Part shown: one piece after another, positions 7,289-30,686 of the stretch
Layout of the letters: the number at the start of each line of letters is the position of its first letter
Numbering within the stretch: the first letter of the stretch is position 1
From: an uncultured Actinomycetes bacterium
Lineage (GTDB): Bacteria > Actinomycetota > Thermoleophilia > Gaiellales > JAICJC01
Reading direction: 5' to 3'
Assembly (NCBI GenBank): GCA_963797565.1
Contig: CAWCPM010000005.1
Coordinates: forward strand, 164,256 to 228,255
Length of the DNA: 64,000 bases
The notes under the pieces: model-generated
Database searches by the model: none
What the model was told of the DNA's origin: nothing
What the model saw: only the letters and a program-made list of their open reading frames with translations
Made by a program: the position numbers and the translations under genes

Positions 7289-7347
7289 GCCGGCCAGCCT
7301 ACGGCCGCCCGCTGCCACGAATCGCCCCCCGGCCGATCACAACTCCG

Positions 7348-7439
7348 CGCCAAGGGTGCGACGCAACACGTGCGTCTGGCACCGGTGTTGCACGCCAAGG
7401 GTGCGACGCAACACGTGCGTCTGGCACCGGTGTTGCACG
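7348..7439. repeat. Two tandem 45-bp direct repeats, each containing a 29-bp REP-like palindrome
   Basis: Unit CGCCAAGGGTGCGACGCAACACGTGCGTCTGGCACCGGTGTTGCA at 7348 and 7393; hairpins at 7363-7391 and 7408-7436. Confidence 0.9.
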
Positions 7440-7511
7440 AATTCCGATAGTGAAACGGGCATCCGACCACTAATATCGTAGTTTTCGGGCTAAAAATTGC
7501 CAGGAATTCCG

Positions 7512-7597
7512 TAGAATCGGGCGCAACACCGGTGCCAGGCGCCGGTGTTGCATCTAGAATCGGGCGCAACACCGGTGCCAGGCGCCGGTGTTGCATC
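7512..7597. repeat. Two tandem 43-bp direct repeats with the REP-like palindrome in the opposite orientation
   Basis: Unit TAGAATCGGGCGCAACACCGGTGCCAGGCGCCGGTGTTGCATC at 7512 and 7555; palindrome is 26/29 identical to the reverse complement of the first pair. Confidence 0.9.
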
Positions 7598-7631
7598 CGC
7601 GGGTGTGCGAAGCCGCGGGTTGAGCGCGGAG

Positions 7632-21160: not shown

Positions 21161-21756
21161 TACGGCGGCAGGTTGTCGTACCACTCGCCCAGCGCCTTGA
21201 ACGCCGCCCAGAACTCGCGCTTGGCGGCGGAGTCGTTCAGCGAGCTGTCGATGTCGGGTACGGCCAGCAGGTCGATCGTGGGGGTGAACGGCCGCACCTG
21301 GCCGCAGCCGAACTCGACCGGCGATGAGAGTGGGAACTCCAGCGATCCCAGGAACGCGACGGCGTCGGAGCCCATCGCGACGACGATGCCGGGCTGGGTG
21401 ATGTGCAGCTCGTGGGTGAGCCAGGCGCGCGCCTGAGCGAGGTCGTCCGGTCCGGGGTCGATGTCGACCTTCAGGCAGACGCTGCCGTACAGCTTCAACG
21501 GGTCGATGCGCAGCCGCTCGATGCTCTTCAGCACCGCCTGGCCGGCACGGCCGAAGAAGGCCACGCCCTCCTGCACCTCCGCCGCGGCCGGCCGGTACTT
21601 GAGCAGGAAGATGTCGGCCAGCGGGTGGCCGGTGCCGATCACCGGCGCCTGTGCGGGGTGGTGGTCGCCGACCCAGGTCGCGATCTCATGGCCGAGCTGG
21701 TTGGTCTCGGCGATGGCGCGGGCCTGGTAGCGCTCGTAGATCTGATCGTCGGGCAC
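21157..21756 (-). CDS. Uracil-DNA glycosylase family 4-fold protein with degenerate active site
   Basis: VIGTGHPLADIFL, FFGRAGQ, QPGIVVAMG match UDG-4; GEGPG, HPS and Fe-S cysteines are absent. GGAG RBS before GTG 21756. Confidence 0.65.
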   Translation of the reverse strand: MPDDQIYERYQARAIAETNQLGHEIATWVGDHHPAQAPVIGTGHPLADIFLLKYRPAAAEVQEGVAFFGRAGQAVLKSIERLRIDPLKLYGSVCLKVDIDPGPDDLAQARAWLTHELHITQPGIVVAMGSDAVAFLGSLEFPLSSPVEFGCGQVRPFTPTIDLLAVPDIDSSLNDSAAKREFWAAFKALGEWYDNLPPY

Positions 21757-21848
21757 GCTCACTCCGACATATTGGCGCATCCGCGGCCGAAACCTCTACC
21801 CCGCGATGCGTTCAAGCTTGTGGAGCGCGCGGTCGATCATCTCCACAA

Positions 21849-23306
21849 ATGCCTCGCATCTCCCGAGCTGCGGCGGCAGCCTGCCTGGCCGCATTCACCC
21901 CTGCTGCGCTGGTGGCGCTGGCATCGCGCCGCGTGAACGGCGAGTTCGAGCTGCCCACGCTGCACGTGCTGGCGGTCACGGGTACCGCCGCCGTCGCCGC
22001 CGCGGTGTCGGTGCTGATGACACGGGCGGCGATCCGCAGGAACGACACGCGAGCAGGGCTCGTGGGCGTCGCCTTCACCGTCATGGCCGGGCTGATGACG
22101 ATCCACGGCCTGGCCACGCCGGGCGTGTTCCTCGGGGAGTACGCCCGCAACGCCACCGTCGGCCTGGCCGGCGTGCTGGCGGTTCCGGCCGGGGGCGTGA
22201 TCCTGGCCGCGGCGGTGCTGGCACCGTCCGCCCGGGCCGGTGCCACCCGCGTGGTCGTGCGCTGCCAGGCGGCCGCCATCGGGGCGCTGTTGGTGTTCGG
22301 GGTGGTCGGGCTGGTGCATCCGGAGCTGATTCCGCTGGTGCCGCTGCAGGTGGAGCCATGGGTGTACTTCGTGCTGTTCCCGGTCAGCATCGTCTACCTC
22401 TGGATCGCGCGCCGGGCCTTCGTCACGCACCAGCTGACCGGCCGCCGCGCCGATCTCACGGTCGCCGTCGGCCTGATCTGGCTGGGCTGCTCGATCGTGA
22501 TCTACCTGCTCTCGGAGACGTGGACGTTCGGGTTCTGGGCGGCGCACGCGATGGAGGCGATCGGCTTCGTGGCCGTGGCCGGCTCGGTCGCCGTCGACCT
22601 TGCCCGGCAGGTGCCCTCCTACCACCTCTACCGCCGGGTGGAGGGCAGCGACCTGCTGGAGTCCGAGGAGAGCCTGCTGGGCGGCTACGTCCGCAGCATG
22701 ACCGCGACCATGGAGCTGCGCGATCCCTCCACCCGCGAGCACTCGAGGCGGGTGGCCGCTCTGGCCGTGCGGGTGGGCATGAAGATGGGGCTGCCGGCAC
22801 CGGCGCTGCGCCGTCTGGCCGTTGCCGGGCTGCTCCACGACATCGGCAAGCTGCAGGTGCCCGAGCGGATCCTGAACAAGCCGGGCCGGCTCACCGATGA
22901 GGAGTTCGCGGTGATCAAGACGCATCCCCGCAAGGGCGCCGACCTGCTGGCGCACCTGGGCGGGTTCGAGCGAGAGCTGCCGATCGTGCTGTGGCATCAC
23001 GAGCGGTTCGGCGGCGGCGGATACCCGGACGGCATCGCCGGCCAGGCGATCCCGCTGGAGGCCCGCATCATGACGGTCTGCGACGTGTACGACGCGCTGA
23101 TCAGCCGGCGCGCGTACCGCGAACCGTGGTCACACGAGCGGGCGATGGCCCAGATCGTGAGCGAGACCGGCACCACGTTCGACCCTGCCTGCGTGGATGC
23201 GCTGGCAGCGGTGCTCGAGGGCGCCGGCGATCCGCAGGTGCAGGTGCTGCACCAGTCGCTCGGCATCGTCCGCGCTGCCGCCCGCGGAAGCCTAGGTCGA
23301 AGGTGA
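21849..23306 (+). CDS. Membrane-anchored HD-GYP cyclic-dinucleotide phosphodiesterase
   Basis: Multi-TM N-terminus; TREHSRRV, LLHDIGK, HHERFGGGGYPDG, DVYDAL..RRAYR. Confidence 0.9.
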   Translation: MPRISRAAAAACLAAFTPAALVALASRRVNGEFELPTLHVLAVTGTAAVAAAVSVLMTRAAIRRNDTRAGLVGVAFTVMAGLMTIHGLATPGVFLGEYARNATVGLAGVLAVPAGGVILAAAVLAPSARAGATRVVVRCQAAAIGALLVFGVVGLVHPELIPLVPLQVEPWVYFVLFPVSIVYLWIARRAFVTHQLTGRRADLTVAVGLIWLGCSIVIYLLSETWTFGFWAAHAMEAIGFVAVAGSVAVDLARQVPSYHLYRRVEGSDLLESEESLLGGYVRSMTATMELRDPSTREHSRRVAALAVRVGMKMGLPAPALRRLAVAGLLHDIGKLQVPERILNKPGRLTDEEFAVIKTHPRKGADLLAHLGGFERELPIVLWHHERFGGGGYPDGIAGQAIPLEARIMTVCDVYDALISRRAYREPWSHERAMAQIVSETGTTFDPACVDALAAVLEGAGDPQVQVLHQSLGIVRAAARGSLGRR

Positions 23307-23503
23307 GATGGGTGATCGGTATCTCCCGCGAGCCTGGCCGCTGCGACCGGTTTGAGGTCAGCGGCGGCTGGGGTGGCTACGGCTGCAAACCGTCGTCTCG
23401 CTATGTCCTCGGTCGCGCCAATACGACCCGGTATTGACGCTCCCTGCCATTGCGAGACTCGTTCTCGCCGTCCAGGACATCACGAATACCGATCACCCAT
23501 CTC
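23305..23503. ncRNA. 199-bp structured non-coding element (candidate ncRNA or MITE-like element)
   Basis: Perfect 18-bp inverted repeats GAGATGGGTGATCGGTAT (23305-23322) and ATACCGATCACCCATCTC (23486-23503), with at least five internal stems; lies between convergent genes. Confidence 0.55.
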
Positions 23504-23506
23504 GGG

Positions 23507-25306
23507 CTAGCTCCCCGTCTTCCCGACCTGCTGCATCCACTTCAAGCCCTGCAGGTAGAGCAGGTTGCGGGGCCGCCGCACGATCTGGTTGTGCCGCATC
23601 GCGACCAGGAACTCCTCCGGCCCGTCGAAGGCCGGGATGCGGTTGACGGCGGTGCCGATGCCCTGCAGCACGTGCGCGTCGGAGCCCGCCGACTGCACCA
23701 GGTTGTACTTGGTCGCGAATCGCAGGGCGTCGTCGTTGAACGAGTCGAACAGCAGCCGTGAGTTGTAGACCTCGAACACGTCGATCTCATCGAGGTGGCG
23801 GAGCAACGTGGCGGAGTCCGGGATCGTGTGCAGGCGGTCGAAGGGGTGGGGCATCAGCACCAGGCCGCCCTGCTGCTGGATCTCGGCGATGGTGTCGGAC
23901 ATGGTCATGCCCCGCTCGATCCGCTCGTGCAGGAACAGCCCGATCACCTCGCCCTGTGAGGTCTTGACCTCCTCGCCCACGATCACCGTGATCGGCTTGT
24001 CCAGGGCGGCTGCCTCGAGCGCGCCCGAGATCTCGTTGTGGTCGGTGATCGCGATGGCGCCCAGGCCCTGGGCGATGCAGTGGTCGACCAGCGCCTCGGG
24101 GTCGGTGGCGCAGTCGTGCGAGTGGCTCGTGTGCATGTGCAGGTCGGCGTCGATCAGCACCGGCCGCGCCGGCGCCGCCTGGGGCCGAGCCCGGCGCCGC
24201 CGCAGCAGGCCGGTGTAGAGCGACTCCAGCCGCTCGGCCAGCGCCGCCGCGCCGCGCTCGGATGCGGCCCGTTCGCCCTCGGCGGCCAGCCGCCCGCGCA
24301 GCTCGGGCTGCTCCAGCAGGCGGGCCACCGCGGCGGCGGCCAGCGGCGGCTGGTCGGCCGCGTAGCGCAGCCCCGTCCCATCACCGACCGAGACCACGAC
24401 GGCGCCGCTGGCGCGAGCCTCCCAGGCCAGGAGGGCGTTCCCATCCGGCGCTGCCACGAACACGTCGGCGGCTCCCAGCAGCCGGGCTCGCTGCTCGTCC
24501 CGCTCCAGCCCCTCGGTGCGCACACGCCCCCGCGCCCGTGGTGGCACGTACGGCCGCATCGGCCTGCGGCCGCGCCTATCCCAGACCAGCGTCAGCTCGA
24601 CGCCGGGCATGTCGGCGACGGTGCGGATCAGGCTGCGGGCGACGCCACGGCCCTCGCCCGTCCACTCGGCCACGACCCTGGTGCCGGTCTTGGCGGCGGG
24701 GGTGAAGATGCCGGAGATGGGGTCGGGCATGACCTCGTAGTCGCCCGGGTACAGCGTGCGGGCAAGCTCGGCCGAGCGCGTGCTGGCCGCGAGCAACGCA
24801 TCGATGCGCGACCCGTAGCGCTTCCGCCGGCCGCTGCGGATCGGATAGCTGAGTGCGCGCTCGGTCTCGGCGTGGAAGGTGGCCACGATCAGACCGCGGG
24901 TGTGGCGCAGCGCGGCGGTGGCCAGCCCCGGCACGATCGGCTCGTGGGCGTGCACGATGTCGAAGCCGCCCTCGCCGACGGCCAGCGCGACGTTGGCGGA
25001 GGCCGCGATCGGCAGCCCGGCGCCACGCCCGCGGCCGCGCGCCCCGCTGGGCACGGCAGGGCCGACGGCCACGGCCAGCGGCTCACCGGGCAGCGCGTGC
25101 AGCGCCTCGCCGTCGCCGGCGGCCAGCGAGCGCAGCCGGCGACGGCCGCTGCGAAGCGACTGCGAGGACGCGCTGGGCGCGAGCACCGTCACCCGGTGCC
25201 CGCGCCCAGCCAATCCCGTCGCCTCGTTCCGCACGTACTCGGCCACCGGATGGCCGCCGGCCAGTGCGTAGGGCGAGACGAGGCAGATGTTCAGCGCATC
25301 GGCCAC
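23507..25306 (-). CDS. Fusion of PimA-like GT4 glycosyltransferase domain and PHP phosphoesterase domain
   Basis: ICLVSPY...GHRVTVLAP, FDIVHAHEP, VATFH (PimA-like); DLHMHTSHS, ITDHNE, GEEV, PHPFD, GSDAH (PHP metal ligands). Confidence 0.8.
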   Translation of the reverse strand: MADALNICLVSPYALAGGHPVAEYVRNEATGLAGRGHRVTVLAPSASSQSLRSGRRRLRSLAAGDGEALHALPGEPLAVAVGPAVPSGARGRGRGAGLPIAASANVALAVGEGGFDIVHAHEPIVPGLATAALRHTRGLIVATFHAETERALSYPIRSGRRKRYGSRIDALLAASTRSAELARTLYPGDYEVMPDPISGIFTPAAKTGTRVVAEWTGEGRGVARSLIRTVADMPGVELTLVWDRRGRRPMRPYVPPRARGRVRTEGLERDEQRARLLGAADVFVAAPDGNALLAWEARASGAVVVSVGDGTGLRYAADQPPLAAAAVARLLEQPELRGRLAAEGERAASERGAAALAERLESLYTGLLRRRRARPQAAPARPVLIDADLHMHTSHSHDCATDPEALVDHCIAQGLGAIAITDHNEISGALEAAALDKPITVIVGEEVKTSQGEVIGLFLHERIERGMTMSDTIAEIQQQGGLVLMPHPFDRLHTIPDSATLLRHLDEIDVFEVYNSRLLFDSFNDDALRFATKYNLVQSAGSDAHVLQGIGTAVNRIPAFDGPEEFLVAMRHNQIVRRPRNLLYLQGLKWMQQVGKTGS

Positions 25307-25313
25307 GCGGTGG

Positions 25314-26468
25314 TCACCCCTTGGCCGCGGCCTTCTCCTTGGTGCCCGACTTCTTCGGCGTGTACTTCTCGATGAAGGTCTCGACCTGCGTGTGGCACTC
25401 GTCGTCGGGGTGCTGTACCGGGGGCGACTTCATGAAGTAGGCGGACGGCCACTCGAGCGCGCCTCCGATGCCGTTGTCGAGGGCCAGCTTGGCACAGCGC
25501 ACGGCGTCGATCACGATGCCCGCCGAGTTGGGGGAGTCGACCACCTCGAGCTTGAGCTCGATGTTCAGGGGCACGTCGCCGAACGCGCGGCCCTCGAGGC
25601 GGATGTAGGCCCACTTCCGATCCTCCAGCCAGGCGACGTGATCGGACGGGCCGATGTGCACGTTCTTGGCGCCGAGGTCGTGGTCGAGCTGCGAGGTGAC
25701 CGCGTTGGTCTTGGAGATCTTCTTGCTCTCCAGGCGCTCACGCTCGAGCATGTTCAGGAAGTCGGTGTTGCCGCCCACGTTCAGCTGGTGGGTGCGCTCC
25801 AGCCGCACACCCCGCTCCTGGAACAGGCGCGCCAGCTTGCGGTGGACGATCGTCGCGCCGACCTGCGACTTGATGTCGTCGCCGACGATGGGCAGGCCCT
25901 TCTCCTCGAAGCGGCGGCGCCAGTAGGGCTCGCGGGCGATGAACACGGGGATGCAGTTGACGAAACCGCAGCCGGCGGCGAGCACCTGCTCGACGTACCA
26001 CTTGGTCGCCTCCTCGGAGCCGACCGGCAGGTAGCTGACGACCACGTCGGTCTTCGTGTCCTGCAGGATCTTGACGACGTCGGCGGTCTCGCCCGATGCC
26101 TTCGTGATCACCTGCGACAGGTACTTGCCGATGCCGTCGTGGGTCATGCCCCGGTAGACGGGCACGTCCAGCTTGGGCACGTCGGAGAACTTGACGGTGT
26201 TGTTCTGGCCGCTGAAGATCGCCTGCGACAGATCCTTGCCGACCTTGTCGGCGTCGATATCGAACGCGGCGCTGAACTCGATGTCCGAGATGTGGTAGCC
26301 GCCCAGGTCGACGTGCATCAGACCGGGCACGCTCACCCCGACCTTGGCGTCCTGGTAGTACTGAACTCCCTGTACGAACGACGAGGCGCAGTTGCCGACG
26401 CCGACGACGGCGACGCGCACCTTTCCGTTCGAGGCGCGATGTCCGTTTTGCGAGGCCGTTTCGGCCAT
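25314..26468 (-). CDS. ino1: myo-inositol-1-phosphate synthase
   Basis: [50 protein letters not shown]. Confidence 0.95.
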
Positions 26469-26470
26469 AC

Positions 26471-27091
26471 CTATCCCTCCGATTTCGCGTTCAGTTGTGT
26501 GCGTACGTAGGCGATGCGCTGGACGACGGTGATCGCCGTCAGGGCGGCCAGGATGTAGATCGCGTAGGGCAGCACGCTGCCCACGCCGGCGAACGGCAGC
26601 ACCACGGCCAGCAGCACGATCCGCTCGGCACGAGCCATCAGGCCGACGTCGCCCTTCAGGCCCAGCGCCTCGGCCTTGGCGCGGGTGTAGCTGACCAGGA
26701 ACGACCCGACCAGCGCCACGAACACGCAGGCCAGGGCAAGGCTGTCGCCGCGGTCGGCCAGCACCAGGGCGATGGCACCCAGGATCACGCCCTCGCTCAT
26801 GCGGTCGAGGGTCGAATCGAGGAAGCCGCCGAACGGTGTCATCTTGTCGTGCGCCCGCGCCAGCGCGCCGTCCAGGGCGTCGATCACGGAGCCGGCCACG
26901 AACACAACCGTCGCCCACACCCAGTGCTGCTCGTAGATCAGCACACCGGCCACCACGTTCAGCAGGAACCCGCCGGTGGTGAGCTGGTTGGGGGTGAGCG
27001 GGATGCTGCGGAAGCTCTGCATGAAGCGCAGCGCGACGCTGCGACCGCCGTTGGTATACCCGTCCTTGAGACGCGCGAGCGAGGTGGTCAT
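26471..27091 (-). CDS. pgsA: CDP-alcohol phosphatidyltransferase (phosphatidylinositol-phosphate synthase-like)
   Basis: [15 protein letters not shown]...[10 protein letters not shown] signature, SYTRAKAE; adjacent to ino1. Confidence 0.85.
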
Positions 27092-29680: not shown

Positions 29681-30686
29681 TCGGCCGACTCGACGGCCGC
29701 GCCCGCGCCGGCCGGCGGCGTGGCGGGGCGCATCGCCGGCTGCTTGCCGCGGCGGGGAGGGCGGGTCACCCGGATCTCCTGGGCGACGGCGTAGGAGCCG
29801 ATCACGAGCGTGGCTGCGAGCAGCTGTGCTGCCAGCCCCTCGGCGGTCGGGAAGATCGCGAGCCAAAGGCCAAGCGAGTCGGAGATGGGCAGGGCCACGT
29901 TTGTGGCCGGGATCCAGCCCGCCAGCTGCATCTCCTGGACGGACTCGCCGACCATCACGATCAGCACCAGCCCGATGGTGACCCCGGTCGCCACCAGCAT
30001 CCGCCGGTAGGGCAGGCGGCGCTGCAGCCGGAACGTAACGACGCCCACCAGCGAAGTCAGCGCCAGGCCGATCGCGACGCCCTCCAGCACGGTCGCCGAG
30101 CCGTATACCAGCCGTAGGTTCTGCAGGAAGATGACGACTTCGAAGCCCTCGCGGTAGACCGAGGTGAACCCGAGCGCGGCCAGGCCCAGCAGCAGCGCGC
30201 GTCGACCCTGGTTGCCGTCGTCGGTGAGGCGCTTGCGGCGCCGGTTGTGGTGCGTGATCCAGCCGGTCCAGTAGACCTTGTGGAAGAACCAGTTCATGAC
30301 CACGAGCAGCACGCCCACCGCCAGCAGGCTGGTGGCAGCCTGAATGCCCAGACCCGGGTTCCCGAACATGCCGATCACCCAGATCGCCAGGAACCAGGTG
30401 CCGATGCTGGCGAGCATGGCGGCGCCGGCGCCGATCGCGACCGGGCGCCGGTGGGCTCGGTTAGCGCCCATCATGCTGGCGGTGATCGCGGCCAGCACCA
30501 GGATCGATTCCAGCCCCTCGCGGAACACGAGCACGGCACTGTCAACGACCCGGAGCCGTGGCTGAGGCGCTGGTCGGCGGTCGGATCGGAGACGTTGCCC
30601 GAGCCTGCCGCGAGTTGCCTGATCGCGACGACGGCCGCGACCGCGGCGAGCGACCACCAGATGAACGTCCGTGAGTTTGGGCGCAG
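29677..30686 (-). CDS. FTR1/EfeU family high-affinity iron permease (apparent 1-nt deletions at ~30550 and 29677)
   Basis: Two RExxE motifs (FREGLE, YREGFE). N-terminus with TM segment lies in another frame (30471..30833). Start uncertain. Confidence 0.8.

What the first reader, a model, noticed from the sequence alone, without database searches (positions are those of the whole stretch)
23305..23503. 199-bp multi-branched non-coding element with perfect 18-bp terminal inverted repeats, downstream of an HD-GYP gene
Seen: closing stem 23305-23322/23486-23503 (18/18). Arm A: AGCC/GGCT + GCCGCT/AGCGGC + GACC/GGTC (about 23331-23369). Arm B: ACGG-CTGCAAA-CCGT (23379-23393). Arm C: ATGTCCT/AGGACAT (23403-23409/23474-23480) enclosing GCGCCAATAC/GTATTGACGC (23415-23440) and GCGAGA/TCTCGC (23452-23468). 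Two C-A mismatches on the plus strand become G-U pairs on the minus strand, which favours a minus-strand RNA. It fills the gap between convergent genes, so it cannot be a 5' riboswitch of either. No target-site duplication is visible. I do not recognise it as a known family. Inference: an uncharacterised trans-acting structured RNA (6S/Ms1-sized) or a MITE-like element.
Basis: partly seen in the sequence, partly recalled or inferred. Interest (0 to 1): 0.8.

Follow-up and report, generated by a model that had tools for sequence, protein, structure and literature searches.

The report
Small mobile inverted-repeat element (MITE)
The 199-bp hairpin-forming sequence is one copy of a small, non-coding mobile DNA element (a MITE) that inserted between two convergent genes of an uncultured soil actinobacterium (Gaiellales); it is a new family of an ordinary kind, not a new RNA gene.

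Summary
A perfect 18/18 inverted repeat (23305-23322 / 23486-23503) closes a strongly folding 199-bp segment that exactly fills the gap between an HD-GYP gene and a GT4-PHP gene. There is no Rfam match.

The element is not a conserved gene. The two closest relatives (93-94% nucleotide identity in the flanks) lack it: there the two genes abut, with a 4-nt CTAG overlap or a 9-nt spacer.

Related copies (80-90% identical; 126, 203 and 259 bp) lie at three unrelated loci in other metagenome contigs. Three more copies are visible only as spurious ORF translations.

For one copy, 20 orthologous empty sites show a clean TA target-site duplication inside overlapping convergent stop codons (TTAG). There the element's terminal G...C rebuilds a TAG stop for both genes.

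All five compensatory changes fall in the terminal repeats. The internal arms show none, and whole arms are gained or lost between copies.

Verdict: a new, low-copy MITE family in Gaiellales that behaves like Correia, RUP and ERIC elements. The transposase is unknown; a TA-duplicating IS630/Tc1-type enzyme is inferred. The trans-acting RNA reading is not supported. A cis effect of the hairpin on neighbouring transcripts is possible but untested.

The parts
23305..23322 (.). Left terminal inverted repeat, GAGATGGGTGATCGGTAT. The first two bases (GA) sit where other copies have the duplicated TA. They complete the TGA stop of the HD-GYP gene.
23486..23503 (.). Right terminal inverted repeat, ATACCGATCACCCATCTC, an 18/18 complement of the left repeat.
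23328..23377 (.). Internal arm A, a long imperfect hairpin. The 5' half is conserved in all four DNA copies. The 3' half is replaced in the L045 copy. Variation is one-sided only (G-C to G-U) or breaks the pair.
23379..23396 (.). Internal arm B, a short hairpin (ACGGC...GCCGT region). It is nearly invariant between copies.
23398..23485 (.). Internal arm C with two inner hairpins (23415-23440 and 23452-23468). The block of about 23400-23472 is absent from the 126-bp L045 copy. The L047 copy has about 60 extra bases inserted after about 23447.
23283..23304 (+). Left junction. These are the last codons of the HD-GYP reading frame. They have no counterpart in the two empty-site relatives and include CTAG at 23292-23295. 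The origin is unresolved. One reading is a TA duplication within CTAG, with the inserted unit spanning 23295-23506.
23504..23510 (.). Right junction, gggCTAG. It matches the empty-site sequence gggCTAG of the relative L022. The CTA at 23507-23509 is the stop codon of the GT4-PHP gene on the - strand.
21651..23306 (+). HD-GYP-type (HD_5 domain) membrane protein gene, given as the longest ORF; the true start is probably further downstream. Its stop codon is built from one flank base plus the first two bases of the element. Its C-terminal tail differs from both relatives.
23507..25306 (-). Gene for a glycosyltransferase family 4 plus PHP phosphoesterase fusion protein, convergent with the HD-GYP gene. 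Homologues are named Gaiellales in public records.

Best explanation
The element is one copy of a non-autonomous DNA transposon (a MITE) of a previously undescribed family in uncultured Gaiellales (Actinomycetota).

**Shown**
- It is an insertion specific to this lineage, at the junction of two convergent genes that abut in close relatives.
- Related copies sit at unrelated loci.
- At the one locus where the empty site is cleanly available, insertion duplicated a TA that lay inside overlapping convergent stop codons (TTAG). The element's terminal G...C restored a TAG stop for both genes.

**Inferred**
- It is moved in trans by a DDE transposase that binds the 18-21-bp terminal repeats and makes a 2-bp staggered cut at TA. 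IS630/Tc1-mariner-like is the most likely type.
- TA is rare in this 71% G+C genome and is concentrated in stop codons. Gene ends, and above all convergent junctions without promoters, are therefore where insertions both land and survive.
- When read through from a neighbouring gene, the transcript would fold into a long hairpin, so the element may incidentally affect 3'-end processing or stability. That is not its reason for being there.
For: **Empty sites at the window locus**
- L022 (GT4-PHP 94% aa; flanks 93-94% nt): the two genes overlap by CTAG.
- L024 (95% aa): the two stops are separated by a 9-nt spacer.

**Dispersed copies with DNA**
- L045 1528-1653(-), 126 bp, between a cupredoxin-like ORF and another convergent ORF.
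- L047 11029-11287, 259 bp, between a sigma-70 gene and a LigD_N gene.
- L177 4943-5145, 203 bp, between two co-directional genes.
- Pairwise identity between copies is 80-90%.

**Further copies seen only as translations:** P0122, P0244 and P0246.

**Target duplication.** Twenty orthologous loci lack the L047 copy.
- Closest empty site: ...cccggtTAgacgag...
- Filled site...ccaggtTA[GATGG...CCATC]TAgacgag...

**Other MITE features**
- Size variants arise by loss or gain of whole hairpin modules.
- There is no coding capacity and no Rfam family.
- TA is at 46% of expectation in the window. Of 27 YTAR sites, 11 fall in stops of long ORFs.
- Bacterial MITEs are described as about 100-200 bp with terminal repeats, TA termini, a target duplication and stably folding transcripts (PMC2229807).
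Against: - No autonomous partner (a transposase flanked by the same repeats) was found, and the search could not be done properly.
- Copy number inside any one genome is unknown. It looks low: one copy in this 64-kb window and none in about 100 kb of other Gaiellales DNA.
- The window copy shows no direct duplication. It has GA...TC where TA...TA is expected, and 14-17 nt to the left of the repeat have no counterpart in the relatives.
- Exact-18-mer scans of 185,579 species genomes and of the JGI metagenome collection returned only one true relative.
- The two terminal repeats stay complementary within a copy while differing between copies (five compensatory pairs). A pure two-independent-ends model does not predict this.
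Confidence: 0.8

Rival explanations
1. The element is a MITE by origin, but its long terminal hairpin has been taken over as a cis-acting element between tightly packed genes. In RNA, or in single-stranded DNA, it could act as a bidirectional 3'-end stabiliser, an RNase III site, a terminator or an insulator. Selection on the stem would keep the two repeats complementary.
For: - Five stem positions change on both sides between copies. Window, L047 and L177 each keep matching left and right repeats, apart from one G-T wobble in L047 and the four unmatched outermost bases of L177's left repeat, while differing from each other.
- Copies lie 0-14 nt after stop codons.
- One-sided changes in arm A are all G-C to G-U on the + strand.
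- Correia elements are cleaved by RNase III at their terminal repeats, and ERIC elements at 3' ends alter expression (PMC10969869).
Against: - Covariation is confined to the terminal repeats. A transposase must recognise both ends, so subfamily co-evolution or conversion between the arms explains it equally well.
- L045 combines a window-type left repeat with an L047-type right repeat and carries three mismatches.
- There is no U-tract and no terminator-like site.
- Close relatives manage without the element.
- There are only four DNA copies, so the statistics are weak.
Confidence: 0.12
2. An independent, trans-acting structured small RNA gene of 6S/Ms1 size, transcribed from its own promoter.
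For: - Both strands fold far better than shuffles.
- The sequence is non-coding and intergenic.
- There is no Rfam match, so it would be new.
Against: - It is absent from the same locus in relatives at 93-94% nucleotide identity.
- Copies occur at unrelated loci and in different lengths, with entire arms missing or added.
- The internal helices have no compensatory changes.
- No promoter-like or terminator-like site was found.
- Its ends coincide with the stop codons of the neighbouring genes.
Confidence: 0.03
3. An in-situ remnant of a full-length insertion sequence that once sat at this junction and lost its interior by deletion. On this reading it was never mobilised as a small element.
For: - The same CTAG junction carries a full IS481-like insertion sequence in another relative, L023, so the site is a hot spot.
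- CTAG occurs on both sides of the window element.
Against: - The same ~200-bp internal architecture recurs at three other loci.
- The IS in L023 has unrelated ends (TGTAGGACC...).
- No transposase fragment is detectable in the six-frame translation.
Confidence: 0.03

Closest known systems
Correia elements / NEMIS of Neisseria
   Same: - About 100-160 bp and non-coding, with long terminal inverted repeats (about 24-26 bp).
- TA at the termini and a target duplication.
- Size classes made by an internal block.
- Left and right repeat subtypes that combine into hybrids.
- Transcripts fold into a long hairpin that RNase III cleaves (PMC2229807; PMC10969869; subtype hybrids from my own knowledge).
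   Different: - No sequence similarity and a different phylum.
- Hundreds of copies per Neisseria genome, against apparently few here.
- No IHF-site or promoter evidence here.
- The interior is a mosaic of several G+C-rich hairpins.
RUP of Streptococcus pneumoniae and other IS630-mobilised MITEs
   Same: - A TA target duplication.
- Small size and terminal repeats.
- Presumed trans-mobilisation by an IS630-family transposase (PMC2229807; the IS630-Spn1 link from my own knowledge).
   Different: - No cognate IS630-like element with matching repeats has been identified here.
- The repeats are twice as long.
- The host is high in G+C, so TA targets are largely confined to stop codons.
ERIC / IRU and YPAL elements of enterobacteria
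   Same: - Imperfect palindromes of about 127-170 bp in transcribed intergenic regions, often at 3' ends.
- Length variants from internal insertions or deletions at fixed points.
- Effects on mRNA stability (PMC2229807; PMC10969869).
   Different: - ERIC terminal repeats are short (7 bp of contiguous pairing).
- There is no sequence similarity.
- ERIC elements are largely immobile and conserved in position, whereas this element is polymorphic between close relatives.
REP / BIME elements mobilised by RAYT (IS200/IS605-like) transposases
   Same: Palindromic intergenic repeats enriched between convergent genes.
   Different: REPs are 20-40-nt single hairpins, usually in clusters, with no terminal repeats and no target duplication. 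This element is about 200 bp, has 18-21-bp terminal repeats and shows a TA duplication.

Membership tests
Bacterial MITE (non-autonomous element with terminal inverted repeats) | Small size (under about 300-500 bp) and no transposase or other coding capacity | tested here: met
   The copies are 126-259 bp. The six-frame translation has no protein-like ORF, and translations match only spurious extensions of unrelated genes.
Bacterial MITE (non-autonomous element with terminal inverted repeats) | Terminal inverted repeats | tested here: met
   18/18 in the window, 20/21 in L047, 17/17 in L177, and 15/18 in L045.
Bacterial MITE (non-autonomous element with terminal inverted repeats) | Target-site duplication flanking the element | tested here: inconclusive
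   - Met at the L047 locus: TA, judged against 20 empty sites.
- Not visible at the window copy (GA...TC) or on the left side of L045.
- An alternative reading of the window junction gives C-TA-[23295-23506]-TA-G.
Bacterial MITE (non-autonomous element with terminal inverted repeats) | Several copies dispersed at unrelated loci | tested here: met
   Four loci have DNA and three more are seen as translations, all with different neighbouring genes. This is a count across metagenome contigs. Copy number within a single genome could not be tested.
Bacterial MITE (non-autonomous element with terminal inverted repeats) | Presence/absence polymorphism between close relatives (empty sites) | tested here: met
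   There are two empty sites for the window copy and 20 for the L047 copy.
Bacterial MITE (non-autonomous element with terminal inverted repeats) | A cognate autonomous insertion sequence sharing the terminal repeats | not testable with these tools
- No partner lies in the window.
- ISfinder was not available.
IS630 / Tc1-mariner-derived MITE | Duplication of a TA dinucleotide at the target | tested here: met
   Comparison of the L047 filled site with the L176 empty site. The direct repeat can also be read as TAG or TAGA, so a 3-4-bp duplication is not strictly excluded.
IS630 / Tc1-mariner-derived MITE | Terminal repeats matching those of an IS630-family member | not tested
   No reference set of IS ends was available.
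Any Rfam RNA family | Covariance-model match at or near the gathering score | tested here: not met
   No hit overlaps 23305-23503 even at E<=10. There is none at gathering score in the window.
REP / BIME | Single imperfect palindromes of 20-40 nt, no terminal repeats, no target duplication, usually clustered | tested here: not met
   The unit is about 200 bp with 18-21-bp terminal repeats and a TA duplication. It is solitary at each locus.
Integron attC site | R''/R' core sites (RYYYAAC...GTTRRRY), an unpaired central spacer with extrahelical bases, and location after cassette ORFs in co-directional arrays | tested here: not met
   - GTTAGAT fits GTTRRRY in L047 only, and no copy has the inverse core.
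- The stem is perfect, without bulges.
- The loci are convergent housekeeping genes, not cassette arrays.

The most novel reading that the evidence does not exclude
This MITE family may be adapted to the overlapping convergent stop codons of compact, high-G+C genomes. It targets the TA of YTAG, and its terminal G...C rebuild a TAG stop on both strands, so insertion costs neither gene anything. Its terminal stem is kept complementary by compensatory evolution, or by conversion between the arms, because the hairpin works as a separator between convergent transcripts that would otherwise collide. Such a separator could be a terminator, an RNase III site or an insulator.
Probability: 0.2. Interest if true: 0.55.

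Novelty: new member of a known kind. Interest (0 to 1): 0.3.

Why it matters
- **It removes a false lead.** The striking fold is a property of a mobile element, not evidence for a new regulatory RNA.
- **It adds a MITE family for Gaiellales.** This is an abundant but uncultured soil lineage, and the literature searches here found no such element described for it.
- **It gives a clean example of target choice in a G+C-rich genome.** A TA-targeting transposon is channelled to stop codons. Two convergent genes that overlap at their stops can take up 200-260 bp without losing either stop.
- **It flags an annotation hazard.** Gene callers read through these copies and produce chimeric proteins (P0121, P0122, P0243).
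- **It leaves one open question.** The co-variation of the two terminal repeats is worth testing on a larger sample.

Tried and rejected
**Searches that found nothing useful**
- Exact scans with the 18-mer repeat returned only single, unpaired hits in unrelated taxa, about the number expected by chance. This applied to 20 hits in genome contigs and to 21 of 22 in metagenome contigs. Only L045 was real.
- Three viral-contig scans used two conserved internal 16-mers and the L047-type repeat. nhmmer showed that all hits were chance.
- blastn 'distant' searches against plasmids and phages found no match.
- Rfam gave nothing at E<=10 locally or at gathering score over the window.
- The promoter and terminator consensus scan found none.
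- nhmmer with the 3-copy and 4-copy profiles found no further copies in the window or in about 200-400 kb of fetched Gaiellales loci.
- The 3-mismatch repeat-like site at 30368-30385 lies inside coding sequence with no partner. I treat it as chance.

**Look-ups that failed**
- P0122, P0244 and P0246 are not on record, so their DNA could not be read.

**Ideas considered and dropped**
- attC site.
- REP/BIME element.
- A remnant of the IS481-like element seen in L023.
- A 4-bp CTAG duplication produced by an IS5-type enzyme. The other copies end at TA|GATGG...CCATC|TA and do not share the window's extra outer bases.
G-U pairs occur on both strands.
Full report
**1. The observation**

The sequence is as described.
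- Arms 23305-23322 and 23486-23503 are 18/18 complementary. The 18-mer, even with three mismatches allowed, is expected 0.02 times in shuffles of the window.
- The 199-nt segment folds far better than shuffles on both strands: -106.5 kcal/mol with z = -6.6 on +, and -109.6 kcal/mol with z = -7.5 on -.
- Without the terminal stem the interior is only modestly unusual, z = -2.5 and -3.4.
- The segment exactly fills the space between two convergent genes. One is an HD_5/HD-GYP membrane protein gene whose TGA (23304-23306) is made of one flank base plus the first two bases of the repeat. The other is a glycosyltransferase-4/PHP fusion gene whose stop is at 23507-23509.
- G+C falls to about 62% over the element, against 71% for the window.
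- Rfam has nothing on the element at E<=10 and nothing at gathering score in the whole window.
- No sigma-70-like promoter or intrinsic-terminator-like site lies within 22900-23900.
- The window holds a single copy.

**2. It is an insertion, not a conserved gene**

Homologues of the GT4-PHP protein carry the name Gaiellales in public records. I fetched the orthologous locus from three relatives.
- **L022** (protein 94% identical; flanking DNA 93-94%). The two genes overlap by the 4-nt palindrome CTAG, which holds both stop codons. There is no intergenic DNA at all.
- **L024** (95%). The stops are TGA and TCA, separated by 9 nt.
- **L023** (83%). A complete IS481-like insertion sequence sits in the same CTAG with a CCTAGC duplication. 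It encodes a 314-aa rve transposase and has ends TGTAGGACC.../...GGTCCTTCA.

The junction is therefore a hot spot for insertions, and the 199-bp element is specific to the window's lineage. A short contig carrying exactly the window's GT4-PHP protein (L021) ends at that gene's stop codon, 3 nt short of the element. This fits an assembly break at a repeated or polymorphic sequence, but it proves nothing.

**3. Other copies exist at unrelated loci**

Exact scans with the 18-mer in 185,579 species genomes and in the JGI metagenome collection gave about 20 single hits each, roughly the chance expectation. Only L045 showed extended similarity.

Queries were translations of the element in six frames and in its one fully open frame. 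These recovered spurious ORFs that read through other copies.

| Copy | Source of evidence | What it shows |
|---|---|---|
| L045 1528-1653(-) | DNA | 126 bp, between a cupredoxin-like ORF and a convergent ORF |
| L047 11029-11287 | DNA, via P0121 | 259 bp, between a sigma-70 gene and a convergent LigD_N gene |
| L177 4943-5145 | DNA, via P0243 | 203 bp, between two co-directional genes: 10 nt after one stop, 16 nt before the next ATG |
| P0122 | translation only | N-terminal extension of an ABC ATPase, covering two frames of the element's minus strand |
| P0244 | translation only | DNA not on record |
| P0246 | translation only | DNA not on record |

- The copies are 80-90% identical over the aligned parts. 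They differ by whole modules.
  - L045 lacks the block corresponding to about 23400-23472.
  - L047 has about 60 extra bases that themselves form two hairpins.
- No copy was found on plasmids, in phages or in viral contigs.
- No extra copy was found in the other Gaiellales DNA I held.
- The family is dispersed but appears to be low in copy number.

**4. How it inserts**

For the L047 copy I obtained 20 orthologous loci from independent samples. All lack the element, and in all of them the two genes overlap by 4 nt.
- Closest empty site (L176): ...gctgcccggtTAgacgagc...
- Filled site (L047)...gctgccaggtTA[GATGGTTGG...CCAACCATC]TAgacgagt...

This is a clean duplication of TA. The direct repeat can be read as up to TAGA, but only TA leaves symmetrical ends.

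In the empty site the sigma gene ends TAG and the LigD_N gene ends TAA, sharing TTAG. After insertion the sigma stop is TA plus the element's first G. The LigD_N stop is the element's last C plus TA, read on the other strand. Both genes keep a TAG at the same codon.

In L045 the right-hand gene likewise ends in a TAG whose G comes from the element.

In the three copies whose left terminus is intact (window, L045, L047), the base before the left dinucleotide is T. In all four copies the base after the right one is G.

TA is at 46% of expectation in the window. Of 27 YTAR sites, 11 have their TA inside the stop of a long ORF. A TA-targeting element in this genome will therefore often meet stop codons. 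That last step is inference.

**5. What does not fit neatly**

- The window copy has GA...TC where TA...TA is expected. These bases are complementary, so they count in the 18-bp repeat.
- L045 has GA...TA.
- In the window, 14-17 nt to the left of the repeat (aagcctaggtcgaaggt) have no counterpart in L022 or L024. CTAG occurs on both sides, at 23292-23295 and 23507-23510.
  - One consistent reading is C-TA-[23295-23506]-TA-G. That is a TA duplication within the ancestral CTAG, with a 212-bp unit that starts with G and ends with C.
  - The outer 12 and 6 nt of that unit would not be shared with other copies.
  - In the current frame the HD-GYP ORF reads through that TAG and stops 4 codons later at the TGA built with the element's first two bases. 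This would require a 2-nt indel in the tail after insertion.
  - I could not resolve this without a closer relative.
- Several contigs named 'contig_N' (L023, L047, L176, L177) carry frameshifted gene calls. Single-base indels in those copies should be treated with caution.

**6. Structure and covariation**

I counted the window's fold on the 4-copy alignment.
- 94% of cells pair.
- Five pairs change on both sides, and all five are in the terminal stem. The 52 pairs of the internal helices show none; they show only one-sided changes (mostly G-C to G-U on the + strand) or breaks.
- The terminal repeats come in three types.
  - Window: GAGATGGGTGATCGG...
  - L047: TAGATGGTTGGTCGG...
  - L177: ....TGATTGATCGA...
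- In each of those three copies the left and right repeats match each other. L045 joins a window-type left repeat to an L047-type right repeat and has three mismatches.

With four sequences this is suggestive only. Three explanations fit:
- subfamilies co-evolving with their transposases;
- conversion between the arms in a snap-back hairpin;
- selection on an RNA stem.

It gives no support to a conserved multi-branched RNA. Strand preference is also undecided, because each strand has wobble pairs that are mismatches on the other.

**7. Comparison with what is known**

The anatomy matches the published description of bacterial MITEs: about 100-200 bp, terminal repeats, a target duplication, 5'-TA-3' at the termini, and transcripts that form long stable stem-loops (Delihas 2007, PMC2229807).

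It behaves most like Correia elements (long repeats, TA, size classes, hybrid repeat types) and RUP (TA, linked to IS630). Like ERIC it shows modular length variants and sits at 3' ends. It shares no sequence with any of them.

Correia transcripts are cut by RNase III at the repeats, and ERIC at 3' ends changes expression (PMC10969869). A cis effect here is therefore plausible but untested.

I found no description of MITEs in Gaiellales.

**8. Verdict**

This is a new, low-copy MITE family in uncultured Gaiellales. It is a new member of a known kind, and the trans-acting RNA reading is not supported.

The unknowns are the transposase, the copy number per genome, the exact left boundary of this copy, and the reason the two repeats stay matched.

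Noticed in passing
L023:4797-5845 (orthologous junction in an 83% relative): A complete IS481-like insertion sequence sits in the very same CTAG that holds the two convergent stop codons. It encodes a 314-aa HTH+rve transposase, has ends TGTAGGACCT.../...AGGTCCTTCA, and is flanked by a 6-bp CCTAGC duplication. The junction is a hot spot for two unrelated mobile elements.
   Followed up: partly
window 7340-7630: An intergenic region holds two tandem 45-nt repeats (7360-7391 and 7405-7436 cores), then an unusually A+T-rich stretch of about 80 nt, then two tandem 43-nt repeats (7523-7554 and 7566-7597). Each repeat carries the palindrome GCAACACCGGTG...CGCCGGTGTTGC. It looks like an array of four operator-like sites around a promoter region.
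   Followed up: no
L022:3197-3200; L125:10447-10450 and 19 sister loci: In these Gaiellales genomes convergent genes commonly overlap by 4 nt at their stop codons (CTAG or TTAG). No intergenic DNA is left, and therefore no room for a terminator.
   Followed up: partly
L021 (ENA ERZ25421896 NODE_79210, 1905 bp), end of contig = window 23507: A short-read contig encoding exactly the window's GT4-PHP protein stops at that gene's stop codon, 3 nt before the element. This may be an assembly break at a repeated or polymorphic sequence.
   Followed up: no
P0121 (L047:10001-11188), P0122, P0243 (L177:5001-6857): Gene callers read through copies of the element and produce chimeric or N-terminally extended proteins: a sigma-70 factor, an ABC ATPase and a GH38 mannosidase. 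Much of P0121 and P0243 looks like out-of-frame translation, which suggests indel errors in these 'contig_N' assemblies.
   Followed up: partly
window 23507-26500; L022:238-3200: The GT4-PHP fusion gene lies directly downstream of an inositol-1-phosphate synthase gene in a relative. It has more than 7,000 full-length homologues at E<=1e-30. This is a conserved pairing of unknown pathway in this lineage.
   Followed up: no
window 30368-30385: A 15/18 match to the terminal repeat (GATCTGGGTGATCGGCAT on the - strand) lies inside a coding region, with no partner repeat. I judged it chance.
   Followed up: yes
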